From: Camelus ferus | Lineage: Eukaryota | Assembly (NCBI RefSeq): GCF_009834535.1 | Contig: NC_045696.1 | Location: 87,918,001 to 87,982,000 of the forward strand | Reading direction: 5' to 3' | Length of the DNA stretch: 64,000 nucleotides | Part shown: positions 26,473 through 64,000 of the stretch, piece by piece | How the letters are laid out: every line of letters starts with the position of its first letter | Numbering within the stretch: the first letter of the stretch is position 1 | The notes under the pieces: model-generated | Told to the model about the DNA's origin: nothing | The model's database searches: none | The model's input: the letters and a program-made list of their open reading frames with translations, nothing else | Translations under genes and position numbers: made by a program

Positions 26473-29400
26473 CTGATGTAGGAGACTATTAGAAAAGTCC
26501 TAATTGATTCTGATACCAAGACACTGACTCTTTGCCTTTGATTTAGGCACTTCTTGACTAAAGATAAGAATGTGTTTAAAAAGTCAGGGTCAAGAGAATA
26601 TATGTAAGTGGGAAAATCAGCTGCAATGAGAAAGAGGAGAAACCTATTTTGTAATGGTTAGTCTTGAACACATTTCTATTCATCTTTGTTTTGATTCTGT
26701 GTTTGGTCTACTGTTAGACTATGAATAACCTTGAAAATAGTAACTATAGGTATTCTTTACAGCTCATTCAACAAATAAATATTGAGTGACTATTACAGTC
26801 ATAGGATTGGAAAAGGATGTGTACCAAAATACACAATTGAGCCTCTTGTCTACCAAGATGATTTAGAATCTAATAAGGGAGATACTACTTATATTCAAAT
26901 AACTTCAAATCAAGTAGGAACATAAAAGAGAAATGAAAATGCTGCATGAATTCAAAGGAACAAAGCTCACATCCCAGCAGAGATACTGAAATGCCTCATG
27001 GAGGCAGAACTAATTGAATCATAAAGGGTGGGTAAGATTTCAAAAAACAGAAATGAAGGAAAAGATGAATAAAAAGCACGTGCAAAGGAAGAGGAGTCAA
27101 AAACTCCAAGAACTAGTTTTTTGGAAGTAGTACAGAGTAAGAAAAACTCCTTAAAGGAGAAATTGGAAGGTGAGGCTGAAAAGCAAGCTACCTAATAAAC
27201 TCAGTTAAAATAAAAGGCCTGATTCTGATTAAGAAACTGAAGAGCTTAGCATAGGTCTAAATGTGAGTTGGTGCAGATCAATTCCCTAATTCCTCTATAA
27301 TTAGAACTTGTCTGAGAGTTTATTAAACACAAATCATGACATGGACATTGTGCCAGATATTTAGAGAAACTAAGTATTTTCAGTACAGAGGAGCCTCGTT
27401 GCTTGCACAAAATGATTTCACAAACAAACACAATGTCCCCCAGTTCTCCAGCAATAATACTGCTAAAATATTTCCAAAAATATATTATAAATATAGCTAT
27501 TGCAACAGAGAGGCACTGCTGAACTGATTTGTAACACATGGGTTAACAACTGGTTCATTCCTCATGGTGTTTACACACAGAAACTGTGAAGAACATGAAC
27601 GTATGGCATTAAGCCCTTTGTCACCTAGTTTTCATGCTGTAAGAAATTTTAAATTGTCATGTAAACTGGTTTTGAAAAGGAATTTATGTACAGACTGATT
27701 ACAAAAGAAAAGTGAGGTGCATAAAGCAATAAAACAAGATGGTTTTGCAGGTAGCCCTGAGAAAGATAAAGGAAACAGGTCAAATAAATCTTGGCTTCCT
27801 GCATTAGGTAAAAGATGGGAAGAGAGGTAATGACAAAGCCAGAGGAGTCTATTCTGCCATATTTGCATGAAATTCTGAAGAACAGAACTGAAATCCAACA
27901 AGTTGGTGTTGCAGGAAGAGCCTTTGAGAGATTCTCTTGGTAAACTGGAAAGTCTGTCTAATCAGGATAAACGGAATACAATTTTTCCGTAAATCTTAAG
28001 GTGATTTGGGTTTTCTTCCCACCTCTCAAGCACAGAAATACTCTGATTTTTCTGAGACAGTGATCAGACCCAGAAGGCATAAATCAGTAACATTAAGTCA
28101 CAATCACTCTTTACCATTTTATTGGGGTCAAGATAAAATCATACCCAATGAATAAAATAAATGTGGTAAAACCATAGAGATACAGCAGTCAGAAGGAAGT
28201 TACGTACTTCAGTTTTCCTCCATGTAAAATGTTAGTTTGACAGTAGTAGAACCTCATTTCTGAGTTATTTGGGTATTACTAATTTATCTTATTTTAAAAA
28301 AACTCATCTGTGATGTCTTTTTGTTACAGCAACATCAACATTTTACACTTACAATTCCTAGTTATAAAAGATTTCCTGTATCATATTTTTTAAGTTCTTA
28401 TGGAAGGATAATCTACTGAGTTATTATTTGCATTTAATTCTCTTTGTATTTTTCTTTCTTTTCCATTTTAAGAAGTTGGCTGGCTTTGAACTCTATAGTT
28501 CAAAGTTCATTATGCTCAAAGACCTGTTAGTTCACTAGGAGATCCATCTTTCCTTTTTCCCAGGCAATAATTAAGTGCTCTAGGCCTTTTATTTATGGTA
28601 TTCAAGTTGCTGAGTTAATAGGAGAAATATGTATTGCTAGTTATTAGGAAATAATCAGTTAGTCACTAATTTGCCATAAGATAGACAATTTGTAAATTCC
28701 TGGATCTCAGTTTTCTTGATTGCAGCAAAAGTCAATGTATGTTTGCTAACATCTCTCCTAGATGTTATACTCAAATTCTTTGATTTTTACAGTAACCAAA
28801 GCAAACCAATCTACTATAAGAAGCTCTGAAGAAGCAGCCTTAGAAATTGAAGATATGGAAGAGTCTGTCCATTTTATGACATAAAAATGTGATTTTTCTC
28901 CAATATCTGATGATCCTCCAACACATCTAAGGACCTCAGCATTACTTTTATTTTTATAATCACTATTTCCCCATGTAACACATTCAACCATATTTTGTAT
29001 TTAAAAGTATTAAGGGGTAGATAGAATGTGGCAGGAAAAGTTATCCAAAAGTTGGAAATAAGGTAGAATGATGAGGATGAGGATTTTTCAATACTATGAT
29101 ATAGCACCTACTAATAATGCCACCTTACTAATTATTTTTACTCTTGAGGAAATGTAACTTTGTGTGACTTACTATCCATAAGTGATTCAGGCCTAAGCAT
29201 TTTACAGCCCAATAAAGACAGGGGTTAGTTTATATGAAATTGATGAACGGTGATCTTTTTCCCTTGCCTGGTAGAGAAAATAATGTCAAAGTTTATGGAT
29301 GCATTGTCCTATAGGATATACACCTATTTCATCATCCTTGGCCTCACTGATTATAAATTCCAGTTCCTCATAGCCTCTTCACATCATTATCTTATCATTC

Positions 29401-31059: not shown

Positions 31060-32765
31060 AGCCCAATATGATGAAGCCAAACCAAGTATATATCTACACA
31101 GAATGAAGAAAGAGGGAGGTGGCAGAGTGACTTGGAGCAGGGTTAAGAACCCAGGGGTATGAGCAGAGAATCTACACAGCTGGAGGCTTGAAGTGGAGAC
31201 TGTGAGAGCCGAGAAAGCAAAGGAAGGCTTCTGTATTGGTGGGCAACCCAGCACTGGGTTTCAGTGCATGAGCAAGCTGAGGAGGGTATCCACACAAGTC
31301 AGTGACATGAAGTGTCGGAACCAAAAGAGTGTGAGGAAGACATTCAATTAAAGTGGGAGCTGGGAACTGGTAGTGCGTGCCAGAGTCCAAGCTAGTTGGA
31401 GCCAGTCTCCACCAAGGGGCATCCATGGAGTCAGTGTGGGTGGGGAGGGGTTTTGTTCACGTGAGACTGGTAGGAGATGGGACACATACAAGGTTGAACT
31501 TGATGTATTAAACTTAACGGGAGCAAGTTTCTTGTTGGAAAAAGATTATAAATATGGAAAAGGAGAAACTGAGAATGAACTCTGGAGTGTTAAATTGCAT
31601 TGGATATACTGATGGAAATATGACTTTTTAAGTATAGAAATATACATATAGAGAGAGATAGAAATATAGGTATGAATATGTGAGTGTGTGTGTGTGTATA
31701 CTGGTCAAATTAGGTCAATTTTTGTTTAAAAATAAATTATAATAACAGACTATAAGCCATTGGATAAAATAGGAAATCATTCATCAAGATTATTTTCTTA
31801 AAACCAATTTAACTAAGGTCAGTTAGACAATATAACATAAGCTGACTGATATGTTTCTTACTACAAATTTGACTTTTTTATACAGTCTATTTTTATATCC
31901 TGTTTTTGCATCAATATATCTATTTTAACATTCAGTAGTTGAACACCACTATATATGATTTTTTAAGACATAGGGTTTATTTAAAGTTAAGAATTTTTTT
32001 GTATACTTGACTAGTGATTCATGAATAAATGAATCAATTGAATTTGATGACACATAGGGTATTTATATACTTTCAAAGCACCTCCTTATGAAATACATAT
32101 TCATTATAAAGAGGGAAAGGTGTGACTTTACAGAGGAGAAGCCTGGCAAACAGCACAGAGATCAAATGATCAAAGTGAATGTCGTCAGTGATGGGACAAG
32201 TGGAAATTATGCACCACGACTGATGGAGTGAGAAGAATATGGTATTGCTTCTAAAATGCCCCTGCCAAAACGCATAACCTGACTTTAATTATTAGGGAAA
32301 ATCAGCAAACTCAAATTTGCAGGACATTCTACAACGTAACTGGCTGTACGCTTCCGAAGTATCGAGGTCATGAAAGTCAAAGGTTGAGAGACTGTTCCAC
32401 AGAGGAGACAACCAAATACAAAGTGTGGACTGCATCATTTTGTTTCAGAAGATACAGTGGGGATGATTAGTGAAACTTGAACAGGGTCTGACAATTAGGT
32501 GGCATCAGGTATCAACACTGTTACCCTGATTTTGGTGGCTTTATTGCAGTGTGTGGGAGAATGTCTTTGTAGGAAACACACACTACAACATATGGAAATG
32601 ATGGGACATAATAAGGTCAGCAACTTAGTCTCAAATGGTTTAGAAGAAAAAAAGTCTTTTACTTGCATGAAAATTAAGTCCCCTTAATTTTACTTGCAAC
32701 TTTCCTGTAAGTTTGAGATTTTCAAAATATAAACATCATATTTTTTAAAAATTTCAAAATAAAAA
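31060..32765 (+). mobile_element. Old L1 (L1MC-type) 3' UTR, interrupted by a templated insertion
   Basis: ccattggataaaatagga...aaagcacctcc...gactttacagaggagaagcctggcaaac...atgatcaaagtgaatgtc...gacattctacaacgtaactggc...cttgcaactttcctgtaagtttgagatt. Confidence 0.85.
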
Positions 32766-33560
32766 GAGCAATTACTCCTACCTTCCTTTAACTCCTCTCC
32801 CTACTTCATTCTATCACCAAAATTCTAACACTATAAAAGTGTTGCCTCTTAGCTTCATGATAGGAAACATGCTTTAATTACCTATATATTAAGAGTAAAA
32901 TTTAATACATTGAGTCCATATCCTTTATCTTTTCATTTTTTAGTGTTATAAACCATAGGTGTTATTTTTACATTATCTCTTGAAGCTCTTAGAAAAATGT
33001 TTTTTAAAAACAGAAATCATTGAAACAAAATATAGTACAGAACTCCAGGGTACAAAATGTGTACCAATGGAATAGTATGTTTTTATTGATGCTACAAATA
33101 GAAATTCATCATAATTGACCTTCCTACAATATTTTGAGAAAACTCCTTGTAAAAAGAAATACTGTTAGGATCAAAATGTTTTGAGAACAGTCACTAATTT
33201 CTACAGAATAAAGGCAACTTTTAGGGCAAAATGTTGAAAGGGTTTGACTCATTTGTGAAGACAAATTTATAATGATGAATTGGATTTTTTAAAAATCAAG
33301 GATAATTATCATTTCATGCAATTCAAACACTGCATCAAAATTATTTTCTTAAAACCAATTTAACATAAGGTCAGTTAGACAATAACATAAGCTGACTGAT
33401 ATGTTTCTTACTACAAATTTGATTTTATACAGTCTATTTTTATATCCTGTTTTTGCATCAATATATCTGTTTTAACATTCAGTAGTTGAAAACCACTATA
33501 GATGATTTTTTAAGACATAGGGTTTATTTAAAGTTAAGAATTTTTTTGTGTACTTGACTA
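31782..33560 (+). repeat. Non-tandem direct duplication of ~230 bp (31782-32013 and 33333-33560)
   Basis: catcaa(g/a)attattttcttaaaaccaatttaac...gacatagggtttatttaaagttaagaattttttg...acttgacta is present twice with only a few substitutions and indels. Confidence 0.97.
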
Positions 33561-45019: not shown

Positions 45020-45746
45020 GTCTGCTGATGGGTGGGGCTGTGTCCTCACCTAGTTAGTTGTTTCACTTGAGGTGTCCCAGAACTGCAGCCTACAGTTTGC
45101 TGGGTGGAGCTGGGTCTTAGCGCTAATGACCCAAGAAGTCAGCCACCAGGAGAGCTCACACAGATGAATGCTCCTGAATACATCGGCCATGAGCATCTTT
45201 GTCCTCAGAGTAAGCCACAGCAACCTCCCCAGGAGGGCTTCCAAGACCAGCAGGTAGGTCTGGTCCAGGCTTATCGAATTACTTCCTCTGCCCTTGGTCC
45301 CAGTGCATGTGAGATTCTGTGTGCACCATTTAAGAGTGAAATCTCTATTCTCCCGCAATCTTATAAAGCTCCTGCAATCAAGCCCCTCTGGCCTTCAAAG
45401 CCAAATGCTCTGGGGCTTCTCTTCCCACTACCAGACTCCCAGGCTAGGGAGCCTGACTTGAAGCTCAGAACTCTCACTCATGTGGGAGAACCTCTACAAT
45501 ATAATTATTCTCCAGACTGTGGGTCGCCCACCCAGGGGGTATGAGAGTTGATTATATTCTTGAGTCCACCTCTCCTACCCATCTTGCTGTGGTTCCTTCT
45601 TTATATCTTTAGTTGAAGGTCTTTCCTGGTAGGTTCTAGTCTTTTTTTAATTGATGATCATTCAGCAGTTAGTTGTGATTTTGGTGTGCTCATGAGAGGA
45701 GGTAAGCTCAAGGTCCTTTTACTCCACCATCTTGGCCACTCTCCTC
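45020..45746 (-). mobile_element. Isolated cetartiodactyl L1 5' UTR (promoter region) without ORF1/ORF2
   Basis: The minus strand begins GAGGAGAGTGGCCAAGATGGTGGAGTAAAAAGGACC...CACCAAAATCACAACTAACTGCTGAA, the typical L1 5' start with a YY1-like AAGATGG motif. Similarity ends near ctgctgatgggtggggctgtg. Confidence 0.85.
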
Positions 45747-45899
45747 AACCTTTAATTCTTCCCAGACTGCAAAGACTTCCCCTTCTGACTCCTACTGATA
45801 GACTATTTCTTAAAAATATAGTCAGTCTTTGTTATTCTTTCTTTAGTCACAATTAGTCACAAGGAAACTCTCAAGCCAATTTCTGCATCCAATTCCCAC

Positions 45900-46129
45900 C
45901 ATTGCAAAGAAAGCTTTAGATACTATATCTTGTGGTAGGCTCTTCATTTTGCAATATTTTCTTTGTATCTTCTTTTCACAACCACAAGTATTTCCTCTCT
46001 TCCTCCCCTTGCACCAGCTGCTTGATATTCACCAATATTTGGTTCCTTTTTGATTTGCATTTTGGTCTGTTTCAGTTTTGTTCTAGTTTCACTGAATGAG
46101 GCAGAGAAAGCTTTTCTGTTCTCAGTATC
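45900..46129 (-). pseudogene. Putative decayed exon of an unnamed coiled-coil gene
   Basis: Acceptor ...catgcag. The phase-2 frame reads ILRTEKLSLPHSVKLEQN*NRPKCKSKRNQILVNIKQLVQGEEERKYLWL*KEDTKKILQNEE, compatible with the phase-2 end of the 47148-47261 segment. The donor is uncertain. Confidence 0.4.
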
Positions 46130-46249
46130 CTGCATGTTTTTCAGAAGAATGAATAAAACCTTACTTCATGCCCTTAGCATCAAACCAGAAGTCTTGTAAG
46201 TGGATTTCTAAAGCAAACTATCCGGTAAAAATTCTAAAACTAGACATTA

Positions 46250-46960
46250 AGCACTATTTTTTAAATAGTGAAAAGACATGCCATAGACTATGAAAAGATA
46301 GCTGTAAGTCACATGGGCAGATATAAAACTAAAATACAGAATATAAAGAATTTATACAAATTATAACAGACAACAGCCCAATAGAAACAGCTTCTATGCA
46401 TAGTGATTTATAAAAGAAATTCAAATAACCAAATAAACATAATAAAAGATGCTGAACTTTGATGATAGTCAGGTGGGCAAACATTTTCAAATCTAACATT
46501 GGAAAATGTGAATTAGGGAAGGAGAGGTAATCTCATATTCTGCTATGAGCATATTTTGGTGCAAACACCTCAGGAAACAATTTAACAATTGTTAGATTGA
46601 AGACCCAGCAATTCCATTCTTAGCTATATACTTTAGAAAGATACTTGCCTAAGACACAAGTTTATAAGAGCAGTTTTTACAACAGTAAAAATTTGAAACA
46701 GAAATGCATAAACATTTGTAGCATCCTCAAACAATGAAATACTACAAAACTGTAAAAAGATGAATTTTATGTGTAAAATTATAAACATATTTAAAAAATA
46801 GTGCTGACCATAAAATTAAGTCTAAAAGTATATACATAATATGATACTACTTAAAGTTTATTATATATAATAATATGTATATTTTAGGATCAAATTCACT
46901 TGCAATAAAAATACTTTTAAAAAAGCATGAGAATGTTGACTATTAAATGTAGTATTTATT
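46250..46960 (+). mobile_element. Ancient L1ME-type 3' fragment
   Basis: aatagtgaaaagaca...acagaatataaagaa...gacccagcaattccattcttag...caatgaaatactacaaaactgtaaaaaga. Confidence 0.7.
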
Positions 46961-47147
46961 CCAGGAATCCATAAATATTTGAGAAAGTGAGCCAAGTACA
47001 AGCCCAGACTTCACACAATCAATATTCAGACTATCGTCATAGGAACACTGAAAAAAAAGTGTTAAGTCATAAGCTGGTGATATCTAGGACATTCGAATGC
47101 TAATATACAACCCACAGTAGCCAACTGAAACTGCTCCCCTGAGAAAC

Positions 47148-47261
47148 CTGTCATATGAACCGTTCACAAACATTTCTGCTTCTGTCTCTATTTCTTTTCT
47201 GTTTTACTCTGCCACAGCAAATCGTAAAAGCTGAAACATCAAATTGGACTGGTGACTATGT
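47148..47261 (-). pseudogene. Putative decayed exon (114 nt, phase 2-2) of an unnamed coiled-coil gene
   Basis: tatttag| ... ACAG|gtttct. Translates HSHQSNLMFQLLRFAVAE*NRKEIETEAEMFVNGSYD with one in-frame TAA. Confidence 0.45.
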
Positions 47262-48204
47262 CTAAATATGTATAGACAGACACATGGAGTGTTAAAATAA
47301 CTGAGAGACTTCAGAGCTGTAACCAGGGCCATCCCTCTTTGTATAGGAAGACAGTGAAACGCAACCACAGCCTCTCTCTCAGGCTGAGCCGCCATAGTCA
47401 GGGTTCTTAGAACAAACTGTCCTACTATGATTGATGACAGATTGATCTGTCTCCTGCAAAACTGAGGCCAACAACACTGAATGTAACCAGAGAACCGTAC
47501 GTTTCTGTATCATTAACTTATTTTTCCTCTATTTCCTTGTATCATCTAAATTTTGTCAAGATTTCAATATATTAAATCAAAAATCTCAATTTCATAACCA
47601 CTTATAAAAAAGCTCATAATCTTAGTCAATTATTTATAATTAAAATTACCATTTGTTTTAATATAAAGAAATAAAACTGAATTATAGATTGGTTTATTTA
47701 CTTGCAATGGAAAGTTATTAAACCTGAAGCTGTTTACCATCTTTCTATAGCAATAATGAAACTTGCCAACTTGCACAACCATCAGAAACAATCAGAAATC
47801 ACATACATGAGATCTAGCACAGCATTTTTTAATGACTCACAAAGACAGCAGTAGGAAAGCTGTTACCCCATTGCTCTTTACACTCTCGGGTAGTTTACTA
47901 GGATTCAGAAGGACAGACATCAAACTTCCAAAGTAGGTTCTTGGTACTTGGAACACAGGCATTTAAGCTGCACCAATAGGGGAATCAACACATTCCCCTG
48001 GCATCATCAACGATGCAAAACTACTGTATACAGCATTATCCAGGCTCTCAGACCTGACTTACCACCTCAGTATTCTACAAAGGATGATTACCTTAAACAA
48101 TGAAGCTACTGCCAGCTTTGTGGAGAAACGTTCAGTTCCTAAATCATCTGCCAGGAAGGAAGTAAATTCCCTTTCTGGGATAAAAGCCCATAAGAAAGAA
48201 ATCT

Positions 48205-51200
48205 TAAGACAATTAACCCCTTCCTCTTACTACCAAAGTTAGAAGCCAGAACTCATTTCCCTTCCATCTTTACAGAGAGAACACTGGTCTATGACTTCAT
48301 CAGGCCAGACACATCTACCGACAACTTCAGTTTAGAAACGAGCCACATGAGGTCACAGCCGTGATAAGGAATCCATTCTGCTCAGAATGGTGAGAAAAAA
48401 ATCAGGCTTTAGAAATCAGCATGAACAGAATTTCTTCTGGCTAATCCCTAATGCCTACATGCAAGCTGCAGTCTGTCTCCCAACGGCCGCAAGCAGTGGT
48501 GTGTTTGCTGGGGCAGTGCTCACAGTACTGTGCCTACATTTTCTCTGGCTATGCAGCTTCAAAACCTCCATCTTGAACCCTCCCAAAGATTGTATCATCT
48601 GCCTAATGTATTTTAACCCATTCCTTTTCGTTTCAGCAAGCTAAGCAGCTTTTGTTTCCAATCAGAATGCTGACGGATGCTGAATTAATTGCAGGCACAG
48701 CTGCAGATACCACATTCTTAAGAAAACAGAAATCTGAGATTGGTGATATAGACAGGTTGGGTTTGGAGGTGGTAAGGATCCAGCTCAGGAAACACAGTGA
48801 TTAAACATTTAATTAAGTTATTCCAGGTAACTCATTGGAGACTAGCTTCAGAACACTGAGAAGCCACTGCTGTGGAATAGTATGAACAACATCAAGAATA
48901 CAAACCCTACAGGGTAAATTGCCTACTTCTAATTGTACTAGACAATCACCAGTATATACACTATATATATATATATTTTATGTATCTGTGTGTGTGTATA
49001 AATAATATGCTCAAAATCCCAAATTCCCAGCTCAAGGTACACTGTGAGAACCAGGAAAAGCCTAGTCTCCTGAAGTGTAACCTCACTTAGTAGTACAACT
49101 ACACTTAATTGCTAAGCGTATGCTACTTAGTAGTGTCATCCCAGGGCTGAGGTAAGCAAAGAATTACATTCTGTCCAATGACATCATCTGAATGGACATC
49201 CTTGCCAGGTCTTACAGGTAAAATTCAGACCACTGACTAGGAAAGAAGAGAACCCTGGAAATTGAAATGGGGACTCAGAAGGATTCAAATGCCTCTGAGA
49301 ACTCTAAATTCCTCAATCTCATTGAGCCTTCATCACCAGAGGAAGCAGTTTCTCCTCCCCTTTTGCTGGGCAGCACTTCCCTATACACTCATCAACCCCT
49401 TATCTTGTGAAAGAAGGCCAATTCTCCTTGGTCCTCACCCCTCATTATCTGCAGATCTAAGACCAGAGATAGACCATGTTTACTCTCTTGGGGTAGATGC
49501 AAGGGGGAGTAACTTCCATGTTCAACTTTAGGTGGAAAAACTTTACCCCATTAAAAAATTGCAAAATTTGGCTAATCTAGATTAATAAAATCCTAGAAAA
49601 TATATATGGGTATAGATTTAGACATTAAACTAAGAAGGAAAGGAAATTATTTTAAAATAAGATAGTTTCTCATTATAAGAGAGTTAGCAGTGATTTCATC
49701 TGCTTTAAGACTGAAAATTGTTCTAAACATTTGCCAAGTTGGTTGACTAAAACCTGAATTCATGGCGGTAAATAAAGTTAAGGGGTAAGGAATTCTTGGT
49801 GTACCGTAGAAGAAGGAACCCAACACCTTAGGAAACTACAAAAATCAAAGTGATTTATAAAGTAGCCTGATATCCATTCCCTGGTATCTCCAAGGGTCCC
49901 AAACCATGTCCCGTAGGAGGGGCCTTAAGTAAAGCTTTTCACAAAACACCAAGAATAGCACTGACTCTCAGAGCACCAATATATTATAAAAGCATAAGCT
50001 CTAAGATGGCTATTCTCTGTTGGCTGGGAATATGCATGGATACAGTACTTTTGAAACGGGCTCTCTATGTCAAAAGTGCTGTTAGAATCTTCAGGTGGAA
50101 AAAAAACTATACCTTGAAAACAGAAGAGAGAATCCAGGCATGGCTAGGTTAAATAGCAGTGTTAGCAAGATTATCAGGATGATCTGACCCACAGGGATCT
50201 TTTGTTGTGGATGTTTGATCACTGGATTCTTAGGATCTAAGTATAGGGGCAGTTCACTTGAGTCAGTTCACAGACCTAGCATGTCTTCCATAAGGAGAAA
50301 TTGCATATAATTGTAGAGTATGTTACAATAACATCAAAAGTGCCTACTGTAAATTTTCCTCTATAGCTTTCCCAAAAGGACCCACATTTAACAACCAGGC
50401 TAAATGTGCACTGGAGAAAGGGACATTGCAAGATATTTCAGAGATGATTAGAAACTAGCTTTAAATTCAGTCCCTGAAGTCAGACAATTGTCTTCTACTG
50501 GTAAGAATGGGGTTTTTGAAAAATAGAATTGTGGGCAGAGACCACCTCAAGTGAGTCTTATGGAACTCTAATCCTATCTCTTCCCCTAGCAAACAACCCT
50601 ACAACATAGTGCCTTACAGCAGTGATATATATTGTGCTCATAAATTTGCTTAGACAGGATTTGGCAGTGAAAGTTCATCTTTGCTCTTTGTAGCATCAGT
50701 TCAGAGCTAGAATCATCTGTCGAATTATTCACTCATATCTGGTAGTTGATGCTGGCTGTGGCCAGAACACTTACAAGTCTGAGCTGGGGCTGTTACTTAC
50801 AGCACCAACAAGTGGCCACTCGAGGAAGTCTGGACTTCTTCCGAACACAGTGGTTGTGCCCCAACCACCACAAGCATCCCAAGAAAGAGAGCAAGTTGTA
50901 CCTTCTTTTCTAACACAGCCTTGGAAATAGAATACGGCAAACTGACACTGCCTATTTGTCAAAGCAGTCACAAGATCTCACTGTATTCAAGGGTCAAAAG
51001 TATCGATTTTAGCTCTTGATGGGGGAGTAACAGGGTTCCGGAAGAGCATATGGAACCAGAAAAACCACTGCAGCCATTTTGGAAATGTATCATCTTTCAC
51101 ATCATTGCTACTTTATTTACTCATACCAAGGTGTATATTTGTAATACATATACTCAGTAACTGGAAAAAAAATCTCTACACTAGCTCTCAAATGATTGAA

Positions 51201-52985
51201 TCAATCTAAATGACAAATATTATCATATATTTAGTCAGGCAATTTCTGCCATTGCAGCAGTTTTTCCAAAATTTGGTCTCATTTAGGGAGCAAATAAACC
51301 TGCTGCTGCTTGCCTGTTGGTTCATAAATATTGATCTGACATTTCTTTTTATTTTTGCTATTCCAGTAAGTAGACAGTATGAGAAGCAGTTTATCACTCT
51401 AAGGTAGGCCAATAGCACACCTTCTTTGTCTTCTATCTGGGATAAGTCAACTACTTGGCTCTCTGTTGTAATATAATGTAAAAGACTGATTTCACCATCT
51501 CACAGAACGTCATGTTGTCCAGTATACTGATATCATCATATATCTAGGTCCTGATAAGCAGAAAGAAGTCAATAGTTTAAATGCCATGGTAACATGTGGA
51601 TGCTGGTGGCTGTGAAAACAATCTCAGGAAATTTCAGAAGCCTGCTACCCCCATGAATTTTCAGAATGTGGTAGCCTGGAAGGAGTTAAAAATTAGTTGG
51701 CTGCACCTTGCAATTCTAACCTCTGAGAGAGAGATGACACCTGACTGCTATAAAATTTTAAGGAAAAATCCTCATAAGCCATGTTTTATGTGCTGCTGGA
51801 CATCATTTAAGTGAACTGGAATGTTAGTTAATCAGTGGGGTTACAAGAAGTTTGTATGAGCAGGTGGCTCAGTTTCTAATGTGCCTATTCCTACTGCAGT
51901 GTCATCACTTCCTCAACCCACCTCTCTATGACCAAACAGAAAGGGGGTTTTTTGTAACTATGTGATCACAGAGGAAACTTTTCTGATTTACAGAGAGCTC
52001 TGCCCAATATGGTGGCATTAGTTAATATGCACTGTTGTGGCTTCAGAGTCCCACTTGAGGTAGCTCTGGGGGACAGAGGGAAGGATAATCCTGCCAGTGG
52101 GCAAAACTACCAGGGTACTTATTGTAGTCTACTTGTCTTAGGAGGAGAGACTGTGTGAGGAACACATACAAGGACCAGTAGTTTGACCAAATGGTCTGGG
52201 AAAAAGAAGTTTGGATAAACCTCTCAGATTTAACTCAGAATTTGACAATGTTTGTCCTGTGCCAATGTCCAGCAGACGATTCCCAGTGAAGAGGAGTTCT
52301 CAACAATTAGGGGGACAAGTCGTTCTAACATGTGGATCCTAATCAGTCTTTTTTCCCCAATCCATGTAATATTTACTCAAAAGTGGCCATGGTGGCATAA
52401 GGAGATTTTGAATAGGCTCAACATATGGACCTTCCTCTCACCAGTGCCGACTTGGCTATTATCACTATGGAGTGCCTAGTTTTCTAGCAATGGCAGCTGT
52501 CTCTGAGCCCCTGATAGGGGCCCATATCCCGAGGAGACCAGATAGCCACTTGGCAGCAAGTTGGTTAGTTTGGACCCCTTTCCCAGAGTAGATTTTTCCT
52601 TATTGGACTACACACTTACTCTGAATTTGAATTTGACTTCTCTGCTTGCCATGTTCTGCCAAGAACACCATCTGTTGACTCACTGAATGTCTACTCACCG
52701 TCAGGTTAAACCAAACAATATTACTTCTGACTAAGAAAACGCAATTTACAATGAAAGAAAGTAGGGCAGTTGGTTGTTATTCATGGGATTCGCTAGTACT
52801 GTGCCCCAGAAACAACTGTCCTTATGGAATATCGGAATGGGCTTTTGAAGACTCAGTAACAACGTCACCTGAAATACAGTACTGCATGAGAGTCAATGCC
52901 ATCCTATAATATACTGCCTAGTGTTTGATGCTGTCCTCTCAGCCAGAATATGATCTGTGATCCAAGGGATAGAAATGAGAGTGGT
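48205..52985 (+). mobile_element. Degenerate ERVL (class III) provirus: LTR16-like LTR (about 48205-48680) plus gag/pol remnants
   Basis: ERVL gag-like gaaccctggaaattgaaatggggact...gaggaagcag. RT region remnant near 51400-51540. Integrase remnant at about 52551: WQQVG*FGPL...LIGLHTYSEFEFDFSA (cf. WQVDYIGPLP...LTGIDTYSGYGFAFPA) and SD*E (cf. SDQG). Confidence 0.85.
50575..51100 (-). mobile_element. MaLR MLT1-type LTR nested in the ERVL
   Basis: caaacaaccctacaacatagtgcctta...ttattcactcatatctggtagttgatgctggctg...tgtcaaagcagtcacaag...cagccattttggaaat. Confidence 0.8.
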
Positions 52986-53747
52986 TCATTTAATCTAAGA
53001 ATCTGATTGATACAGTATCTATTTAAGTAGAATACATCTCTTAACTTTAAAAGGTATTTATTGAGATCATTGCATCTAATCTCATGATCTTTGATTAGGA
53101 AAAGTTGTTCTCAAAAACATTTGATTACAAGTGTTTAAATTATTTCTATACATATTCTACCCTAGACTCAGACATTTAAACATAAGTTTTACATCAGAGT
53201 AGGATTATTCTATTTATAAAGAGTCACAAAGTATCTGCTATATAGTAGGTTCTCAATAAATATTTGTTGAACAATAAATTTTTAAAGCAAACTCATTCAG
53301 TGAATTTTACTATTTTTCATGAAATTTTTATTTATGAATAAAAATACAGTTTGTAACTTAAGAATATACATCTAGTATGTTAAAATACTGTTACTCAACA
53401 GTTCCTGCTTATTCCTTTTGTTGAAGTGACTTTTATTTTTAACATTTTTACAACTAACAGTCTAATATTAAACAAAAATTGTATTGCTATATAAGCAATG
53501 GACTATTTCAGCCCATAGTTATTCTATAGATATAAACTGTATCTGATAAATATTTATTATTTCTAGCCATGATACATCTTTCTGTCTAAATCAAAACAAG
53601 TTAACCCCAACAAGGAAAAATGTAATGACAATTTCTTTGAAATGGAAAGAAAAGCTATTCTAAGGAAATAAATGTATTTTTTTGCTATTCTCATAGACAG
53701 TAATGTAAATGTGTTTGCCTTCCTTAGAATTATAAAAAAAACTCTAC

Positions 53748-53942
53748 CTGTTCCTGGGTTTTATTTTTAAGAGTTTGAACCTGTGACGTAAACAAGGCTA
53801 TCTTTTTCTCTTTGTTGCAGATATTTTTAATCCAATTCCTATAATAGTGAAACTCTGAGAATCTCAAACAGATATGGGCTTACTTTTTTTTTTTTAATGG
53901 GATCTGATCTCATGAGATGAGATTTTTTTAATTCCCACCTGG
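53748..53942 (-). pseudogene. Putative decayed exon of an unnamed coiled-coil gene
   Basis: Strong acceptor ctttttcttgttttccttttttctctctggtag| and donor CAG|gtagag. Translates ...LFEILRVSLL*ELD*KYLQQREKDSLVYVT[fs]VQTLKNKTQEQ. Both stops are one C>T change from Gln codons. Confidence 0.55.
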
Positions 53943-56900
53943 CTACCAGAGAGAAAAAAGGAAAACAAGAAAAAGTAGAACTAAACTCTGTATGTAAATT
54001 TACATCTGCTCTTCAGAGAACTACAAATTTCATGCAACAAAAATGACAGCGTATGAATTAAGTCAGTTTTTACCAGAAATGGAAATACATATTAAAACAC
54101 CCATTTCTGAAAATGGCTCCAAGTCACTGGAGTATTGTTACAAAAGTAACAAAAGCAAAAATCATGTAAGCATTGTTAAAGAATAAAATATATCCTGATT
54201 TTATGTATTAAAGTAAAAAAGACAAGACATAATACATACAGAATTATTAGATATATCCTAAACAATTATAGGTTCTTGATACAGTATATCAGTCACAACT
54301 CAGCAAAAATTCTATTTTCATTAATACCAAAAAAGCCCCACCTCAAATAAAAGAGCCATCAAAAGTCCACTTTCTTACTTCAAATCCACTTTGTTTTGTT
54401 ATTCAAACATTCTGATATTTTCAAAATTAGAACTATTCTGATGATGCAAATTAAATCTGTACAGGATGCAACTCTACCATTCACAGATTTTTATCTCCTA
54501 CTAGAAAAGGGTCAAGTTTATTTCATTCATTATGTTTACATAATCAAAGCACTAGGAAGCACTAACAGAGGTGCCTTTCTCATGAAGTCCAAGCAAGAAG
54601 ACAGAGGTGTAAATTACTAATAACATAAGAAAAAAATGAAGTATGTCTGCAACAAAATTGTAAGTCATATAATGTGGGAACTAATCAGTATATTCTAATT
54701 TGAGTATTAAGGAACGCTGCAAACAAGTGGCAATTTTTAAACCTAATCTCTAAGTCTGATACAGAGCCTTGCGTGTGATAGTTACTCAACAAATGATTAC
54801 TACATGCATTTTTTTAGTAATGTTTTCGGGAAAAAAAATTTCAAGTATGTAAATAATGAACTTTCATAAACAGAATCAGTCTGACATAGCCACTAACAGT
54901 CTTGGCCAATATGTGATGGTAATTGATCCCAAAATATGATGACTGTGCTCTGCAGTGGTTGTGGACCATTCCTCAAGGACTACCTAACTTGACCTGGAGT
55001 GCTGTATCATTCCATGGTGCAGCAACTTTAGCCTTAACACAGTGAATATAACTCTCAAAATTTAACGTCTCCCAATCTAATTCCATCAGAAATCTTCACA
55101 GAGGTGTGTGTAAATCTAATTCTGCACCAGGAAATATTGCTGTTATATGTTAAAAACAAGTCAAAGGAATCCACTCTGGCTATCATCACAGGACTGTAGC
55201 AGATGGTAGGAGACGGTGTTCATTATAGGGACCACTTTAAAAAAACACTTTCATAAAAGCATGCTCAAGAATTTGGGGATAGGAAGAGACTAATGAGCAG
55301 CATAGGTAAAGAATATCTGCTTTCCAAAGCTAAATGTACTCCACCAAGTAAATATGCTATCACCCCCAATTGTCAAAGTCTCCTCACTTAACCTTTCAAA
55401 ATTTCAGAAAGAGGGAGGAACAAAGCTATCACTAATCATCTACCAATCTCACTGCATCTGCTGAAGCATCTTGGTATCCACCATTAGTGAGATGGATGAG
55501 AAAGGTTGCCTTCACTCCTCTGGTGATGCATGAAGGCTGTTTCTTTGTTAGCAGCAATCCTCCTTTATTGGCATGAAAGCCCAGGAGTGGGAAAAAAAAC
55601 ATTTTTTTCCAGTTTACTCAAGAGACACATCCACTTCACCCAGAATAGATAGATGCAGGAACTACTCTACATCCCTAAAAATTGTAATTTTTGTGTGTGT
55701 GTTACAGAATCTCCCTCATCCCTCCTCTATCTGTGTTTAAAGACTGACTCTCCTCAAAAGTTTAAAAAGCTTTAAATTCCTAAACTGGAAAGCAGAAGGA
55801 CTGGACTCTGTGTTTCTATGTGTCTCTAGCCAATTGGGTAATTTTTTTTTAAGAGTAATTTGGTCATGCTATGGCTCTGTTTCCCCCATATATCTGCTTT
55901 AAGGGCCTTTTTTGAATAAATATAAAACGTATATTGTAGGAAGTGAAACAAAAATAAAAAGAACAATTATTCAACTATAGGTTGAAATAAATCCTATTTC
56001 AGCATTCAAAAAGAAGAAAATGATGGGACCAATCTTGGAAAATGGTCATCTGTAACTGATACAAAACTATCAAAATCAACAACTTCAAAGGAGGGAAAGA
56101 ATTCTGCTGAAGAACCAGACGACATGCCAACAGAACTTTTGGGTCTGCACTCAGTCTTACTTAATCCATCTTTGATATTAGATCACATTGGTATACTTAA
56201 ATATTTTTATTATATCACTGTAGTTTTAATAATATTCTACATAGAACAAATTACAGAAATCCCCCCAAATGGGTGTATAATCTAACTCCTACCCACTTAC
56301 TTTTGTTTTATACCTGCTATCTCAACAAGACTGACCAAAAGACTTTTTCCAAGAAATCTGTTTCTATCTAGAACTTTACAAGAAATATACCTATTCTTCT
56401 CTTCAACCTACTGATAAGGTCTCGATTAAATTATACTTCTTTCCTGGTGATTTATGAGATCACCCCAAATCTCAGGACCCTCTCCCTCTTCTGTAATGCA
56501 TAACTTGTAACTGGTTTGGGCACTGAAGAAATAGTTACAAAAAAATGTACATGTGATAAAGGTCTTATGAGTAAAAAGAAACACTGCCCAAAGAGTAAAT
56601 GAACTAGAAAGTCACCTGAACAAGGACCTTTATCACTAGATATGGAAACTAAGATTGATTACAATTGATCATGAGGGGGAAGGAATATAGACATCAACCA
56701 AAAGATGAGTTTAAAATGAATGGAACCTTTTCCTTCTGTGATTCTTCATCATTTACTCTCCCACATTTTGCTTAACTTTCGCGTGTCTGCAAAATAGAAG
56801 CAAAATAGAAAATACCTAAAAATATGAGTCAAAGTCTATGATGTGCCCAAAACTCTGCCTAGTGTAAGGAGAATACAGAATTTGAAGGCAGGAGCCACAC

Positions 56901-59329
56901 CAGAAAGTCATTTGTAAACTAATTTTAAGCCATTTAAGCAAGCAATGACCATAAATTTAATATTAAAATCCAAATGATGTGGTGCAGACTTCACATGTTG
57001 CTATTTCACCCAAGGGGCAGGGCACTGTGCAGAAGAGATGTACAATGACTTTACACAGAAAGGTAGAGATGACTAATTACCAAAGGGAAGGGAAAGACAA
57101 GGGGAAGAAGAAGAACAGGAAGAAGACATTTCAGATTCATGGACAATTTGAACAAAAGCTAAATCTGAATGTACGTGACACTGTGCAGGGGATTAGAAAG
57201 GGCACGTAGAAGCTACAGTCCACAAGAGGTAAGATTTCCATTTCATTTTATATCATGTCTAGAGACTAGAACTAGAGTTAAAAGATAAGAGTTGATCATC
57301 TGCTGGGCAAACTGTTTCTCTTTAATATATTCATCTATAGTTGGGGGAAAAAATACCACCCAGCTTTCAGATATAATGAGATTAAAAATAATGTGTTTAA
57401 AGCACTAAACTCAGGGCCTACTCATGGTAGGTGACTATTAACTTTAGAATTTTTTCTCAGATCAATAAAAGCAAGAACTTCCTAACAACTTAGAGCTGTC
57501 CAACAACAAAAGGAACCAACTCACTGAGGAATTAACTCCCTATCACTGGACATGTTTATATATAGCCTATACCAGTGGCTTTTCCAAAATGAGTTTTGTG
57601 TAGAAAAGCATTGAGCAAGGGAAAGAATTATTTTTATGTTTATTTTTTATCCCACCTTTCAATCTTTATTTTTAATAAGTTATAACATTCATACTACATT
57701 AATCCAGGTGTAAGTGTTCATTACTTTAAAATAAATGTACATAAAGTGGGGAATGTTCCCAAAAGTTGCTTACTAAGAGAAGAAAGTCATCCCTAAATGT
57801 TTTTATTGCTATCTGTTGAGGATGTAGGAAAAAAAGAGTAAACTAGGATAAGCAATAGGGTAGAAATAAAGACAGCATGGTATGGAAGTCTCAGATTATG
57901 AAAGACTTTGAAAGTCAAGCCAGCTGTCTGCCCTATGTGGCTTTTCATATACATTAACTGAATTTTTATATGCTTCTGACTCATTTACAGAAACTGGTTA
58001 TAGAACATGTTAACAGAAAGTGTCAGGCTCTAGAGTAATTATTGGAGGAAAATTGCTTTTGAGTCTGGTCAAAAATAAAAACAGGGAGATAAAGACACCA
58101 GATTTGGACACAAAATTCCAGTTAATAATAATGATGCTAATAAGACCTAACTTTATTGAGTCTTTATTCTGTTTTAGACACTGTTCTAAGTAGTTTATAT
58201 GAACTACCTCATTTTTCCTTTTAACAAATTTGTGAGGTAGATACTGACGTTATAGGTAAGAATGAGTAATTTGCTAAATAAAGGTCACATAGCTGGTTAG
58301 GAAGCAGAGCTCAGGAAGGTTAGCTCCAGCCTCCACCAGCATGCTTTCTAGACGAAAGCATGATTTGGCAATACTTATTTTAAAATCTCAAAAAGGAATA
58401 TGTAATTCAACCCAGGATGCCTACTTCTAGGAGTAAAGTGAATAAGTAATTATGGATGAGTACAAATAGTATTCATATTACTCATGTGATAATGTTTATC
58501 ACAGAGATGTTTATAATACAGAAAAGCAAGAAACCACCTAAATATTCATAGTAGAATTATTTAAATAATTTATATTATATCCACATATAGGATACAGCTA
58601 TTTAAATTGATGTTGCAGATGAGCATTTTCCCAACAATTTTATCAAAAAAACTTTCCATGCATAGCTGCAACATATAAAACAGAGACAAGCAGAGCCCTT
58701 CTGTCTGAAATGGGCTGAGTTGCCAAGGAAATTGATCCCTGCCCTTATAGCACTATGGCTTTTGAGTCTTTGGTAAATCTCACTGCATGAGTGAATACTA
58801 TTAATGTGGGAAATTTTCCACAGTAGAATCTGAGAAACAAAAGACAGCTACAAAATGACTATATACAAATTTGTTCCAAAAAGTCAGTGGGTAAGGACAA
58901 TATAGTCAGAATCCACTCCCGGAAAAAAAAACAATCCTTTTAGTAATAGATAAGGATATAGAGGATTGAGCAGTCTAATTCTTTACACTTCCTCCATCAG
59001 ATTAACCGGCAGCCCTCCTGGGTGGTGTTCCAGTCCTCAGAACACCTTCATTCCTGGCTCCATCTGGGAGGGCAATCAGTGCTCCTTCTAGTCCCGCTTA
59101 TAGATTCTTCAGAATCAAAGAATCTTACTACTGCTGGTATCTTTCAGAATCTAACTTGATGTTTCATTCTACAAGAATCTTTTCTCCCACCATCCAATAC
59201 ACAGCAGGGGTAAGGATGGACTCAGTTCTGCAATTCCAACTCAGCCACTCTATTCTATTTTTCCCTATGATTCTTGATACCTTTAGGTTATCCTTTGTAG
59301 ATGCCAGTACTCAAGCCACCTCCTTGTAT

Positions 59330-59746
59330 ACTTCACTCCCACACTAACATGATCGATAGTACAACAGAAGTGTTGGTATGTGACTTCTGAAGCTTGGTTG
59401 TGAAAATCATTGAGGATTCCACCTGGCTCTCTTGGATGGCTTGCTCTAGGAGAAGCCAACTGTTTTCCCCAGAGAACACTTAACTACATGGAGAAGTCTA
59501 CATGGAGAGAAGTAAGGGTCCTGAACAACAGAAAGTACCACTTGCCAGCCATGTATGTGAGTCTCCTTGGAAGCAGATCCTCCAGCCCAGCATGTATCTA
59601 GCTGCAACTGAATGAGATATCTCAAGGAAGAACTGATGAACAGAGCCCTCCCCAAATCCTGACCTGCAGAAACTATCATCAATGGTTGTTGTTTTAACCA
59701 TTAAGCTTTGTTCTGATTAATTTTGGAGCAACAGATAATGAAAACA
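59330..59746 (+). mobile_element. MaLR MLT1-type LTR
   Basis: tgtgacttctgaagc...cttgctctaggagaagcca...ttggaagcagatcctccagccc...caaatcctgacctgcagaaact...gcaacagataatgaaaaCA. Confidence 0.85.
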
Positions 59747-60210
59747 CTCTTGTCCAAATTAATCATGACAGGGAGCACCTTTCCCTGAATCTCTGAACCT
59801 CTCAATAGTCTGAGCTTGATGAGCTGAGCAAGGTCATTCACCATTCCTGTCAGCACCTATTTGATACTCACCCACTTTGAACTCTCCTACAAAAAAAAAA
59901 AAAAAAATTCTGGTTCCATTTAAAAACTGGAAAATCTTTCTAAGACAGATATTTAAGAATTCAATTTTCAGTTCGTGATCATTTTTGTTCTTCCAATTAC
60001 ATCGATTACATCAATCACCAATATTCAAAAGACATTTAAAGGAAGAACTGATCAAAAAAAAGCAATCATCTAGATGAAGAATCATTATTTACTAAACATG
60101 TTAAGTGCTTCTAAAAGGTGAGAATAAACAAATGACACTGAAAGACTAAGAAACAGATTTATATTTTTTCATTAGACTGTGAGATTGGAAAACTCAGAGA
60201 TGCTCCCTAC

Positions 60211-60289
60211 TCAGGAAAACTGGCTGTAGTTCCTCTCAGCTGGCTTTCATCTTCTGCTGCTCCTTTCCCAGTGTCACATCAAAATCCAT
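60211..60289 (-). pseudogene. Putative decayed exon of an unnamed coiled-coil gene
   Basis: MDFDVTLGKEQQKMKAS*EELQPVFL with donor A|gtaggg. The acceptor appears mutated (cattttaa instead of ...tag). Confidence 0.4.
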
Positions 60290-60737
60290 TTAAAATGTAC
60301 TGCTATTTTTGGTGACCATTTCTTTAATTAGGGTATCAGTTCAACAGATGAACTAGAGTGGCTCAAAATTGAGAGTGTTTTCAACAAGTTATTTCCCTCT
60401 CACACAAAAAGTCTGAGTTAACAAGGCTGCTCTCTTCTGCAAGGTATAAGGGCCCAGACTCTCTCTCTCATTTTTTTTTTTCAGCCCCGACTGAGGTACT
60501 ATCCTTGTTCATACATCTATGATAGAGCATAGGAGGGTATAGGGGAAAGAAACTGTTGACTGATTTTTTTTTTTTTGCATTCAATTGACTGAAGCATAAT
60601 CACATGTACATAAATAACACAAGAAAGTTGAGATTTTAAAGTTATTTCTCTCAGTATTTATCCTTGGGCAGTATATGCCACATATATGTTTAAGAATTTC
60701 CAATGTATATGCACAAATTTTCAACATCCCTCCTTAC

Positions 60738-60863
60738 AGTCTCAGACAAATTTCTTCAACTCTTTTTACACTACATCCCTTTTGATTAATATTAAAATAT
60801 CAATCAGCTCTCTTTCCTCTTCACTTCAATCAGGTATTAAGAATCGCTAACTCAAGGCAATGT
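60738..60863 (-). pseudogene. Putative decayed exon of an unnamed coiled-coil gene
   Basis: ttgttgtcag| ... ACT|gtaagg. Translates HCLELAILNT*L[fs]SEEERELIDILILIKRDVV*KELKK[fs]LSET. Its phase-2 start joins the phase-2 end of 61138-61202. Confidence 0.5.
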
Positions 60864-61137
60864 CTGACAACAATGCATTCCAACAACTACTGTTACATTT
60901 AAACTATTAGAATGACACCTAGGCCACACAAATGAGATGTTGTTAGTTGATTTATTACACAAGGAGTGTTTTTCTTCCCACACACAAGTTTCATAAAACA
61001 GCATAATGACCATTTCATTGCCAAAAAACTTAAGTGATGATTTTCTCCATCTATAAAATTCACATTAAGCAACCTGAACCATGTCATTTTTAAACTGCAC
61101 ATGATAATTAAATGATCCAATGAGAAACAGAATTCAC

Positions 61138-61202
61138 TCATTATCTCATCTTTCTTCTTGGGTCTGTAACTGTTCCTGCAATAAATACCCTTAAAAACTA
61201 GC
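61138..61202 (-). pseudogene. Putative decayed exon (65 nt) of an unnamed coiled-coil gene
   Basis: tcacatcctatcttacag| ... GA|gtgaat. Translates ASF*GYLLQEQLQTQEER*DN(E). An alternative frame (LVFKGIYCRNSYRPKKKDEIM) is open. Confidence 0.45.
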
Positions 61203-62109
61203 CTGTAAGATAGGATGTGATGAAAACACAAATTCAGTGCAACAACAGCACTCACCCTGTGACAGACACTGTCATCACTCTAGTGATTGGGCAATAACCA
61301 CCTCCCATCCTCAAAGCAATTGAATGAAATTTGAATAAAGAAGATTTAACCAAGCAGATATAGGTAATAAGGGAAATATTGCCTCAGGTGGATTGCAGGA
61401 AAGAAACTGACACATTCAAGTACAGTATGTCCAGATCACAGAAAATGAGAGACAGGCAAGACCTGGGGCTGGAGACAGAGTCATTAATTGTATCACACAG
61501 GGGCTTTGGGGATTTCACTCGAAGGTCAATTGGAAGCCACTGAAGAATATCAAGGAGGGAACTGAAATAAACATTTTATGGAAGAAAGCATATGGTGGTA
61601 AAAGCAGAAACTGAGCATCATAGACAGGCAAGACTGCATGTGAAGACAGTAATTTAGAAAGCAATCACAATAATCCAAGCAAGAGGGTGGTGACTGAGAG
61701 TGTCTTAGACTAGGGGTATAGAAGAGAGAAAATGTGAAACCACCACCAGTCAGCAGGCAGAATTGGCATGACTTGCATAGGAAAACACAAAGAGTTTAAC
61801 TCTGGGGGAAAAAAACACCAAAAATGCTAATACAGTTATTCTATGTAGTAATAGTCTAGGCAACTTCTTTTGATCCTTATTCTCAAAAATGTCTACAGTG
61901 AGCAGTATTAATCAGGAAAAGTGACCTAATTGGAATGTGCAGTTTTGTTTATATCATATGATTGCATCATGTAAATAATACAATATAAATAATACAAGCA
62001 AATAATCCTTCAGGGGTCACACAAAAATGATGCCAATGATCTGATAGAACTACTGGTGTTTTTCTTCCTTCTTCTTTGCTCTTTGGTAGGGCTTGCAAAT
62101 ATTTATCTT

Positions 62110-62335
62110 TCATTTATTTAATCATTTATTCAATAAATATTTACTGAGCATCTATACTCTGCCAATCACTCTTCTAGGCACTGGGGATATATGGGAGCAA
62201 AAACCAAAACCAAAAGCTAACAACTCCTCCTACCTTCATGAAGTTCATGTCCTGGTGTGTGTATGAGGCAGTCTAGCATGTGTGGTGGAGGTGGGGATGG
62301 GGTGCAGATATTAGACAATAAATAAGGTAAATAGA
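62110..62335 (-). mobile_element. L2 3' end
   Basis: catttattcaataaatatttactgagcatctatactctgccaatcactcttctaggcactggggatat. Confidence 0.85.
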
Positions 62336-64000
62336 CTATATTGAGTATGCCAAACGGTTAAAAAAGTGATAGGCATGAATTCCTTTTTTTATTAACTGCC
62401 AAAATAAATATTTTCAAGCACAAAGAAGAAGTGAATTAGTAATAGAACTTTGAGAAGTTCAGACAAGATGGACTCATATGTCATCCTCTCATCTTTTCAC
62501 TGTCCCCATTACACAGTAGTAAACTGCCATCCCCACGCACTGACCTCAAAGCACTATGCTTACACTGTATAGTTCTTACCTGGTTCTATTAGAGTTGCAA
62601 AATATATTTTGTTATTTCAAGACTAGACTTATGAATAGACAAAGTTTGGAACCAGTGGTAGAGAGACAACCATTGCTCTTATATTTTAATAATGAACATC
62701 ACAAGTGAACCTCATGTTGTGCATAAAGACTCTTGATGTATGAACAATATCCATTAATTAGTAATTCAGAAATATCTAGTACAAACCCTGTATCTCAAAG
62801 AACACACTTCTAAATATAACTTTTCCATCTGTAAATGGAATTTTGGAAATGTGTTCTCATCAATATTATCTTTTGAGACTCACAAACCTAATGATATTTG
62901 CACCTGACTGGTTGCAAATTTTACTTGGGAGTTATCTATGGAATGGACAGAATTAAATGTAAACATGCCCCACAAAAAGAAGTCACTCTGCCACCCACTG
63001 GTAACCAGTGGCATTGCAGCCTTTGAGGCTGAGAAACTGGAGAATTGTGAATTTGTGCCTGTGAACATTGAACAATATATGTTGGCGAGGATAATCACAG
63101 TCGTGCTCAACTTTTTGAATGATTTGAGATTTTCAGTTGAATCATTTTGTGGCTAAGTGAAGGGAACTGTACATATTCTTCCTGTCTTTCGTTTCATACT
63201 GTGAAGATGAACTTTCTATCCTAACTATAAATTAATGTGTGTGTTTTAAAGGGTAGAACAAATATGTTCACTTAATATTCATGACCTATTTGGTAATGTA
63301 TCTTAAAAATTAATAGCATGCATAACGTTGTGTTTTTAATGAAAGTATTTGAACATTTCTTATACTGTGCAGTGACTAAGTTTATTTTACATAACGAAAA
63401 TAATTCACCACATTCGGTATGATTAGCTGTTAGCTGCAAAGGGTACTCCACAAATCTTCATGCTAGAGGAATTATGATTTGGGGGTAAGCTATTTCAAAC
63501 CTCAGTAACTTTGTTCCCTTTGGGTTATAGTAGGAATATGGTTTATTGATTTTTCTCAAAACATCCAGTGCTTTTCAATGAGGCAAAAGTTTCAAGTATC
63601 TTCACGCAGTAATTTCAAAACTCTCCTCAAACTATAAAACAAAGATTTTTTTCATACATAGTTTAGTGAATATGAAGCAATACAAATTATAATGAGGATC
63701 TGGCTCTCTCTCAGAGCAAAAAGGAAATTTAATTATAGATAAAAATCATCAACCAAAGTAATACCTTTCCCAGAAAGCCAGGAGCAGACTACCATAGCAA
63801 ATGGTATTTAATCCTTCCTTTCACAAGACGTGCACTTTTGAAAAAAATTAAGGAAGACTAAAATAAATAGTGTATACTTCCTCTAAAAGTAAAATCTTTG
63901 CATAGTAATTATAATGACCTTCCTAAATAAGTAAAAAAAATGAACTACTCCAAAATTGAAAATTTCAAGTATTTGTTAAATAATTGTTAAATAATTAAGT

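What the first reader, a model, noticed from the sequence alone, without database searches (positions are those of the whole stretch)
45900..61202. Probable decayed multi-exon coiled-coil gene (unitary pseudogene) on the minus strand, missed by the ORF track
Seen in the sequence: at least six non-repeat segments (61138-61202, 60738-60863, 60211-60289, 53748-53942, 47148-47261, 45900-46129) lie on the same strand. Most have polypyrimidine-AG and GT boundaries. They translate to E/Q/K/L-rich helical peptide (LLQEQLQTQEER, EEERELIDIL, KEQQKMKAS*EELQ, LL*ELD*KYLQQREK, VQTLKNKTQEQ, IKQLVQGEEERK). Splice phases match for 61138->60863 and 47148->46129, and for 60738->60289 if a 1-nt frameshift is allowed. 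Many stops are one step from Gln/Arg/Glu codons. Inference: the introns are retained, so this would be an in-place gene loss rather than a retrocopy. I cannot assign it to a known gene, so it may be an unannotated gene lost in this lineage or more widely in placentals.
Basis: partly seen in the sequence, partly recalled or inferred. Interest (0 to 1): 0.7.

Follow-up and report, generated by a model that had tools for sequence, protein, structure and literature searches.

The report
Possible ancient gene relic, unidentified
Several short stretches of a camel chromosome look like the worn-out exons of a gene that died long ago, but no living version of the gene could be found, and the look is no stronger than ordinary non-coding DNA nearby can give, so it is about an even bet.

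Summary
The six segments and quoted peptides are present. All six end in GT; five start after AG, and 60211-60289 does not. The quoted peptides of the first two segments are not in one frame. The coiled-coil look does not beat chance: z 0.5-1.8 against own shuffles, versus 3.1 for an RPS6 retrocopy in the window. There is no heptad signal, and seven plus-strand stretches score as well. No intact homologue was found, but power was low below about 55% identity. Against one of them, the frame (25 of 32) is no better kept than the intron (19 of 24), and changes look neutral. So any gene died before those lineages split; a camel-only loss is unlikely. In favour: excess strong splice-site pairs on this strand (12 against 5.3 expected) and a phase-compatible chain with added exons. 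Verdict: about 48% an ancient unitary pseudogene, unidentified.

The parts
61138..61202 (-).
   Evidence: acceptor 99th percentile, donor 71st; frame 1 is open, frame 0 holds the E/Q-rich peptide
60738..60863 (-).
   Evidence: own-shuffle z 1.07
60211..60289 (-).
   Evidence: z 0.46
56727..56786 (-). Added candidate exon D; strong acceptor, weak donor, phase-compatible between B and E
   Evidence: chosen by me after the fact, z 0.37
53748..53942 (-).
   Evidence: acceptor 100th, donor 97th percentile; z 1.74
51421..51550 (-). Added candidate exon H; strong splice sites, phase-compatible after E; 3 stops in every frame
   Evidence: z 2.54
48063..48147 (-). Added candidate exon I; strong splice sites; its only open frame is the one that F requires; the junction codon into F is a stop
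   Evidence: stops per frame 4, 4, 0
47148..47261 (-).
45900..46129 (-).
62580..62627 (-). Possible further upstream exon; very strong donor, weak acceptor; tentative
   Evidence: z 0.0

Best explanation
The segments are remnants of a multi-exon, minus-strand gene for a charged, largely helical protein that was inactivated in place, before the camel lineage split from at least two other (unnamed) lineages, most simply on or near the placental stem. After the first disabling change, selection on the protein ended. Exons and introns have since drifted at the same neutral rate, collecting stops and small indels, while some splice sites remain recognisable. It makes no protein today. Shown: segments, splice dinucleotides, a phase-compatible chain, and the age and neutral drift of segment G. 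Inferred: that the segments were ever spliced together or translated, the date of loss, and the kind of protein.
For: (1) Strong acceptor-donor pairs on the minus strand of 45801-64000 number 12 against 4-6 in the other seven strand/region bins; expected 5.3, P 0.0085. (2) A chain A-B-D-E-H-I-F-G is phase-compatible at 7 of 7 junctions with one net frameshift inside E; the only open frame of I is the one F needs. An automatic chain search under a coiled-coil composition recovered E, H, I and G in 1 of the 4 settings whose chain was printed. (3) In the G core, 3 of 33 columns differ in the camel alone, and in all three both other sequences agree on E, Q or A where the camel has G, a stop or T. 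(4) Only 2 non-spurious matches among 1.84 billion proteins, and no second copy in the window, fit low-copy DNA. (5) The minus strand has T>A and G>C skew, as a germline-transcribed strand would. (6) Hundreds of genes per reference species are present in opossum, chicken, lizard, frog or coelacanth and missing in eutherians (PMC5577775, passage seen).
Against: No intact homologue for any segment (Pfam; PDB; protein libraries). No exon-over-intron conservation (25 of 32 against 19 of 24), and substitutions are as radical as neutral. Stops in the chain frames, 13 in 264 codons, are close to the 6.3% background. In 12 of 12 settings at least one of seven real control stretches gave an equal or better chain. 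The skew is as strong at 1-30000. The Q at the camel stop is forced by the library holding only open frames. No heptad signal.
Confidence: 0.48

Rival explanations
1. There never was a gene. The segments are purine-rich patches of old non-coding DNA that read as E/K/Q/R in some frame, picked out with nearby AG and GT and joined by free choice of frame.
For: Seven plus-strand stretches score at or above the best minus-strand segment. Own-shuffle z 0.5-1.8 against 3.1 for a true coding-derived control. Control stretches give equal chains. Stop density near background. Neutral drift with no exon peak. No homologue.
Against: Excess of strong splice pairs on exactly this strand and region; H and I were found by splice strength alone and fit the phases; the camel-only changes in G all run away from E/Q/A. 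Each of these is weak.
Confidence: 0.37
2. The strong splice sites belong to a spliced non-coding transcript on the minus strand, and the peptide look is incidental.
For: Splice-pair excess and transcription-like skew, without any protein-level constraint.
Against: No reads could be laid, so neither splicing nor expression is shown; the skew is not specific to this region.
Confidence: 0.08
3. The segments are worn pieces of old transposable elements, or of an old DNA-level or retro-copy of a gene that survives elsewhere.
For: The window holds such relics, e.g. an RPS6 retrocopy piece, and purine-rich plus-strand stretches that I recall as L2-like score highly.
Against: No parent for G among 1.84 billion proteins, where 65% identity would be found in 70-99 of 100 simulations; no second copy in the window; no Pfam match on either strand around A-C and on the plus strand around E, F/I and G (0 of 15).
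Confidence: 0.07

Closest known systems
[quoted passage not shown] 2017, PMC5577775 (passages and supplement term searches seen)
   Same: Genes intact in non-eutherian vertebrates and missing in eutherians; the paper notes that sequence similarity between the lost gene and its remnant is rare, as here.
   Different: GLCPs are defined from an intact gene in a reference species; none is in hand here. OTOL1, SPTSSB, SLITRK3, LINC02067 and LINC01192 occur in 0 of 4 supplement files, and six neighbouring gene names in 0 rows of file 4.
Unitary pseudogenes (Zhang et al. 2010, PMC2864566; Zhu et al. 2007, PMC2134963; search listing and abstract start only)
   Same: In-place loss with exon-intron layout kept and no working copy left.
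   Different: Those cases have an identified working orthologue in mouse or dog; this one has none and looks older and more decayed.
Processed pseudogenes, e.g. the RPS6 piece at about 3776-4000 in this window
   Same: Neutral, stop- and frameshift-ridden coding remnant.
   Different: The RPS6 piece finds its parent at once (E 4.8e-8) and stands out from shuffles (z 3.1); the finding's segments do neither and are spread over 15 kb.

Membership tests
unitary pseudogene | Intact orthologue at the syntenic place in another species | tested here: inconclusive
   None found; power 3-41 of 100 at 45% identity; no vertebrate genome could be searched for synteny
unitary pseudogene | Exon-intron layout kept, with splice sites and compatible phases | tested here: inconclusive
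   5 of 6 AG, 6 of 6 GT; chain compatible at 7 of 7 junctions but no better than real control stretches in 12 of 12 settings
unitary pseudogene | Disabling stops or frameshifts | tested here: met
   13 stops in 264 chain codons plus a stop at one junction; this is also true of non-coding DNA
unitary pseudogene | Neutral evolution since loss | tested here: met
   Segment G only: frame 25 of 32 against intron 19 of 24; mismatch scores as neutral, p 0.43-0.91
unitary pseudogene | No working copy elsewhere in the same genome | not testable with these tools
   No whole genome held; no parent for G in the protein library
coiled-coil protein gene | Heptad periodicity of hydrophobic residues | tested here: not met
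   0 of 8 segments beat 95% of same-length window stretches with my own rough heptad model; decay and frameshifts weaken this test
processed pseudogene | Recognisable parent gene, exons joined without introns | tested here: not met
   No parent for G; segments are separated by 274-6486 bases
transposable element relic | Match to a repeat consensus, many copies | tested here: inconclusive
   No repeat library available; no second copy in the window; no Pfam match

The most novel reading that the evidence does not exclude
An undescribed vertebrate gene of nine or more exons, lying near OTOL1 on the homologue of human 3q26.1, was lost on the placental stem and is still intact in marsupials or sauropsids; its fossil exons remain readable in the camel genome.
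Probability: 0.35. Interest if true: 0.5.

Novelty: new member of a known kind. Interest (0 to 1): 0.27.

Why it matters
If real, it adds one gene to the list lost as placental mammals arose, a class that human- or mouse-anchored screens miss because neither species has the gene, and it shows such fossils can be read from raw sequence. Without an identified living orthologue it says nothing yet about biology. If not real, it is a caution that purine-rich non-coding DNA mimics coiled-coil exons.

Tried and rejected
No whole genome is held. Rfam: 0 matches. Pfam: 0 of 9 segment readings, 0 of 6 frames of 49601-53202, 0 of 9 further pieces, 0 of 15 flanked readings; the window was not scanned whole. 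Word-index protein searches: 6 candidates and none at E<=10, none, 803 candidates and none at E<=10; simulated power for one search was 28 of 100 at 55% and 56 of 100 at 65% identity. In one search, 12 of 14 hits are long proteins that all carry a bacterial secretion tail (Por_Secre_tail) and match by a repeated short motif; rejected as spurious. PDB: nothing for G, E, B or H; G profile best E 0.24; F gave multicystatin at E 0.04 from summed 5-bit pieces, rejected. ESM Atlas: no usable hit for P0008, scores 0.76-0.77 for candidate exon I. Metagenome and viral contigs: 493 and 376 pattern matches, none confirmed. Sequencing runs: 20 of 24 listed runs hold 59500-62000 in part, two RNA runs of one study at share 0.76; none could be laid, so this is no evidence of expression or splicing. 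The source organisms of P0008 and P0011 could not be looked up. Resemblances to CAGE1, TRIM coiled coils and L1 ORF1 were recalled, not found by any search, and dropped. No fold was predicted, since any short charged peptide would come out helical. Papers: OTOL1+SPTSSB+synteny 0, OTOL1+eutherian 0, OTOL1+camel 0; searches listed nothing on a lost gene here; the supplement of PMC10195156 had 0 hits. bioRxiv supplements are closed and could hold gene-loss lists that bear on this.

Full report
Setting. The window is mammalian DNA of 31-43% GC with no Rfam match and no long reading frame that looks like a gene. No whole genome is held. Earlier, unchecked scan notes call the genome a camel's and place a gene beside IL12A 1.32 Mb beyond the window's end, with KCNE1, BTLA, GSK3B and MUC13 78, 38, 32 and 28 Mb before it. 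With the cattle and human gene order as I recall it, that puts the window near OTOL1 on the homologue of human 3q26.1. This placement is inference. Gene lists for the chicken and quail interval name no coiled-coil gene there, only one unnamed LOC in chicken (passages of PMC7402339 and PMC10970133).

The observation. All six segments and their peptides are present. Six end in GT and five follow AG; 60211-60289 follows AA. With recalled, approximate splice matrices, two acceptors are outstanding (61138-61202, 53748-53942) and three are middling; G has a better acceptor at 46091. The phase match F to G holds. The match A to B holds only for A's frame 1, not for the frame of the quoted E/Q-rich peptide. 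The remark on stops is empty, since every stop codon is one step from Q, E or R.

Is it more than chance? A frameshift-tolerant scan for coiled-coil-like exons ranks G first on the minus strand, but seven plus-strand stretches score as high or higher. Against their own dinucleotide shuffles the six segments give z 0.46-1.84, while an RPS6 retrocopy piece in the same window gives 3.07; high-z tiles are not enriched here (15 of 302 against 8-15 of 248-301). Best-frame E/Q/K/L content gives nominal p of 0.002-0.28 against mononucleotide shuffles, but the segments were picked for this. No segment shows heptad periodicity (0 of 8 below 0.05).

A possible gene structure. Among those pairs, 51421-51550 (H) and 48063-48147 (I) fall between E and F. 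With 56727-56786 (D) they give a chain A-B-D-E-H-I-F-G that is phase-compatible at 7 of 7 junctions with one net shift inside E, and I is open only in the frame that F needs. Segment C does not fit. The chain was assembled after the fact from several candidates. Its stop density, 13 in 264 codons, is near the 6.3% background. An automatic chain search beat 30-base block shuffles of the region (0-2 of 30 reached it) but was matched by at least one of seven real, partly overlapping control stretches in 12 of 12 settings. The minus strand has T>A and G>C skew, but so does 1-30000.

Outside evidence. Pfam, PDB and word-index searches found no homologue of any segment tried. The one exhaustive search, with segment G, gave 14 hits among 1.84 billion proteins. 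Twelve are long bacterial-type proteins with a secretion tail and are spurious. Two are short frames, P0008 and P0011, that match G's core. P0008 continues in another camel frame and on past the donor (25 of 37 identical, E 2e-18), so it is genomic DNA read through, not a spliced product. P0011 ends just before the camel's TAA, which fits a shared stop though a contig end is not excluded. Their organisms are unknown; that they are mammals is inference from the level of identity.

What the two matches say. Camel against P0008 is 25 of 32 identical in the putative coding frame and 19 of 24 in the intron; against P0011, 23 of 37. Mismatches are as radical as simulated neutral change (p 0.43-0.91). 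So no protein constraint is seen since these splits, and a camel-only loss is unlikely. Of 33 three-way columns 14 vary; the 3 that differ in the camel alone have E, Q and A in both others. That leans towards a more protein-like ancestor, weakly, since the library holds only open frames. An intact relative of G at 65% identity would have been found in 70-99 of 100 simulations, at 55% in 23-74, at 45% in 3-41. An intact placental orthologue or parent is therefore unlikely; a marsupial or reptile one is not excluded. I ran no vertebrate positive control on that library.

Mechanism and rivals. The best single account is an in-place loss of a multi-exon gene before these lineages split, followed by neutral decay (0.48). 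Shown are the segments, the splice dinucleotides, the phase chain and the neutral age of G; inferred are splicing, translation, date and protein type. The main rival is chance selection from purine-rich non-coding DNA (0.37); a spliced non-coding RNA (0.08) and old repeat or duplicate pieces (0.07) follow.

Known kinds. If real it is a unitary pseudogene of the kind called 'genes with lost coding potential' (PMC5577775; passages; locus names absent from its supplements). The defining feature, an intact syntenic orthologue, is not in hand, so membership is open. Eight literature searches listed nothing on a lost gene at this place, and no earlier scan note covers this DNA. Interest 0.27: an unidentified, even-odds fossil of a known class.

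Noticed in passing
window 3776-4000 (+): Decayed retrocopy piece of the C-terminus of ribosomal protein S6 (PDB match E 4.8e-8); used as a positive control.
   Followed up: yes
window 26977-27189 (+): E/K-rich reading with a strong donor at 27169; Pfam Dppa2_A at E 0.075, below its cut-off, no PDB match. Looks like the purine-rich strand of an L2 element by my recall.
   Followed up: partly
window 31722-32013 and 33285-33560: A direct duplication of about 280-290 bases (97% over a 138-base core) around roughly 1.3 kb of other DNA.
   Followed up: no
window 25381-25455 and 26398-26472: 75-base inverted repeat, 93% complementary, around 942 bases that look LTR-like by my recall.
   Followed up: no
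window about 45030-45760 (-): Looks like the 5' end of an L1 element by my recall, inserted about 140 bases downstream of segment G.
   Followed up: no
window about 53884-53930 (-): Inside segment E, a 24-base piece lies between two copies of a 10-base A-rich word, the second running into a poly-A tract followed by a strong donor; possibly a small insertion.
   Followed up: no
window 4900-5213 (-): K/E/N-rich stretch with short open pieces; no credible Pfam match; possibly an old DNA-transposon remnant.
   Followed up: partly
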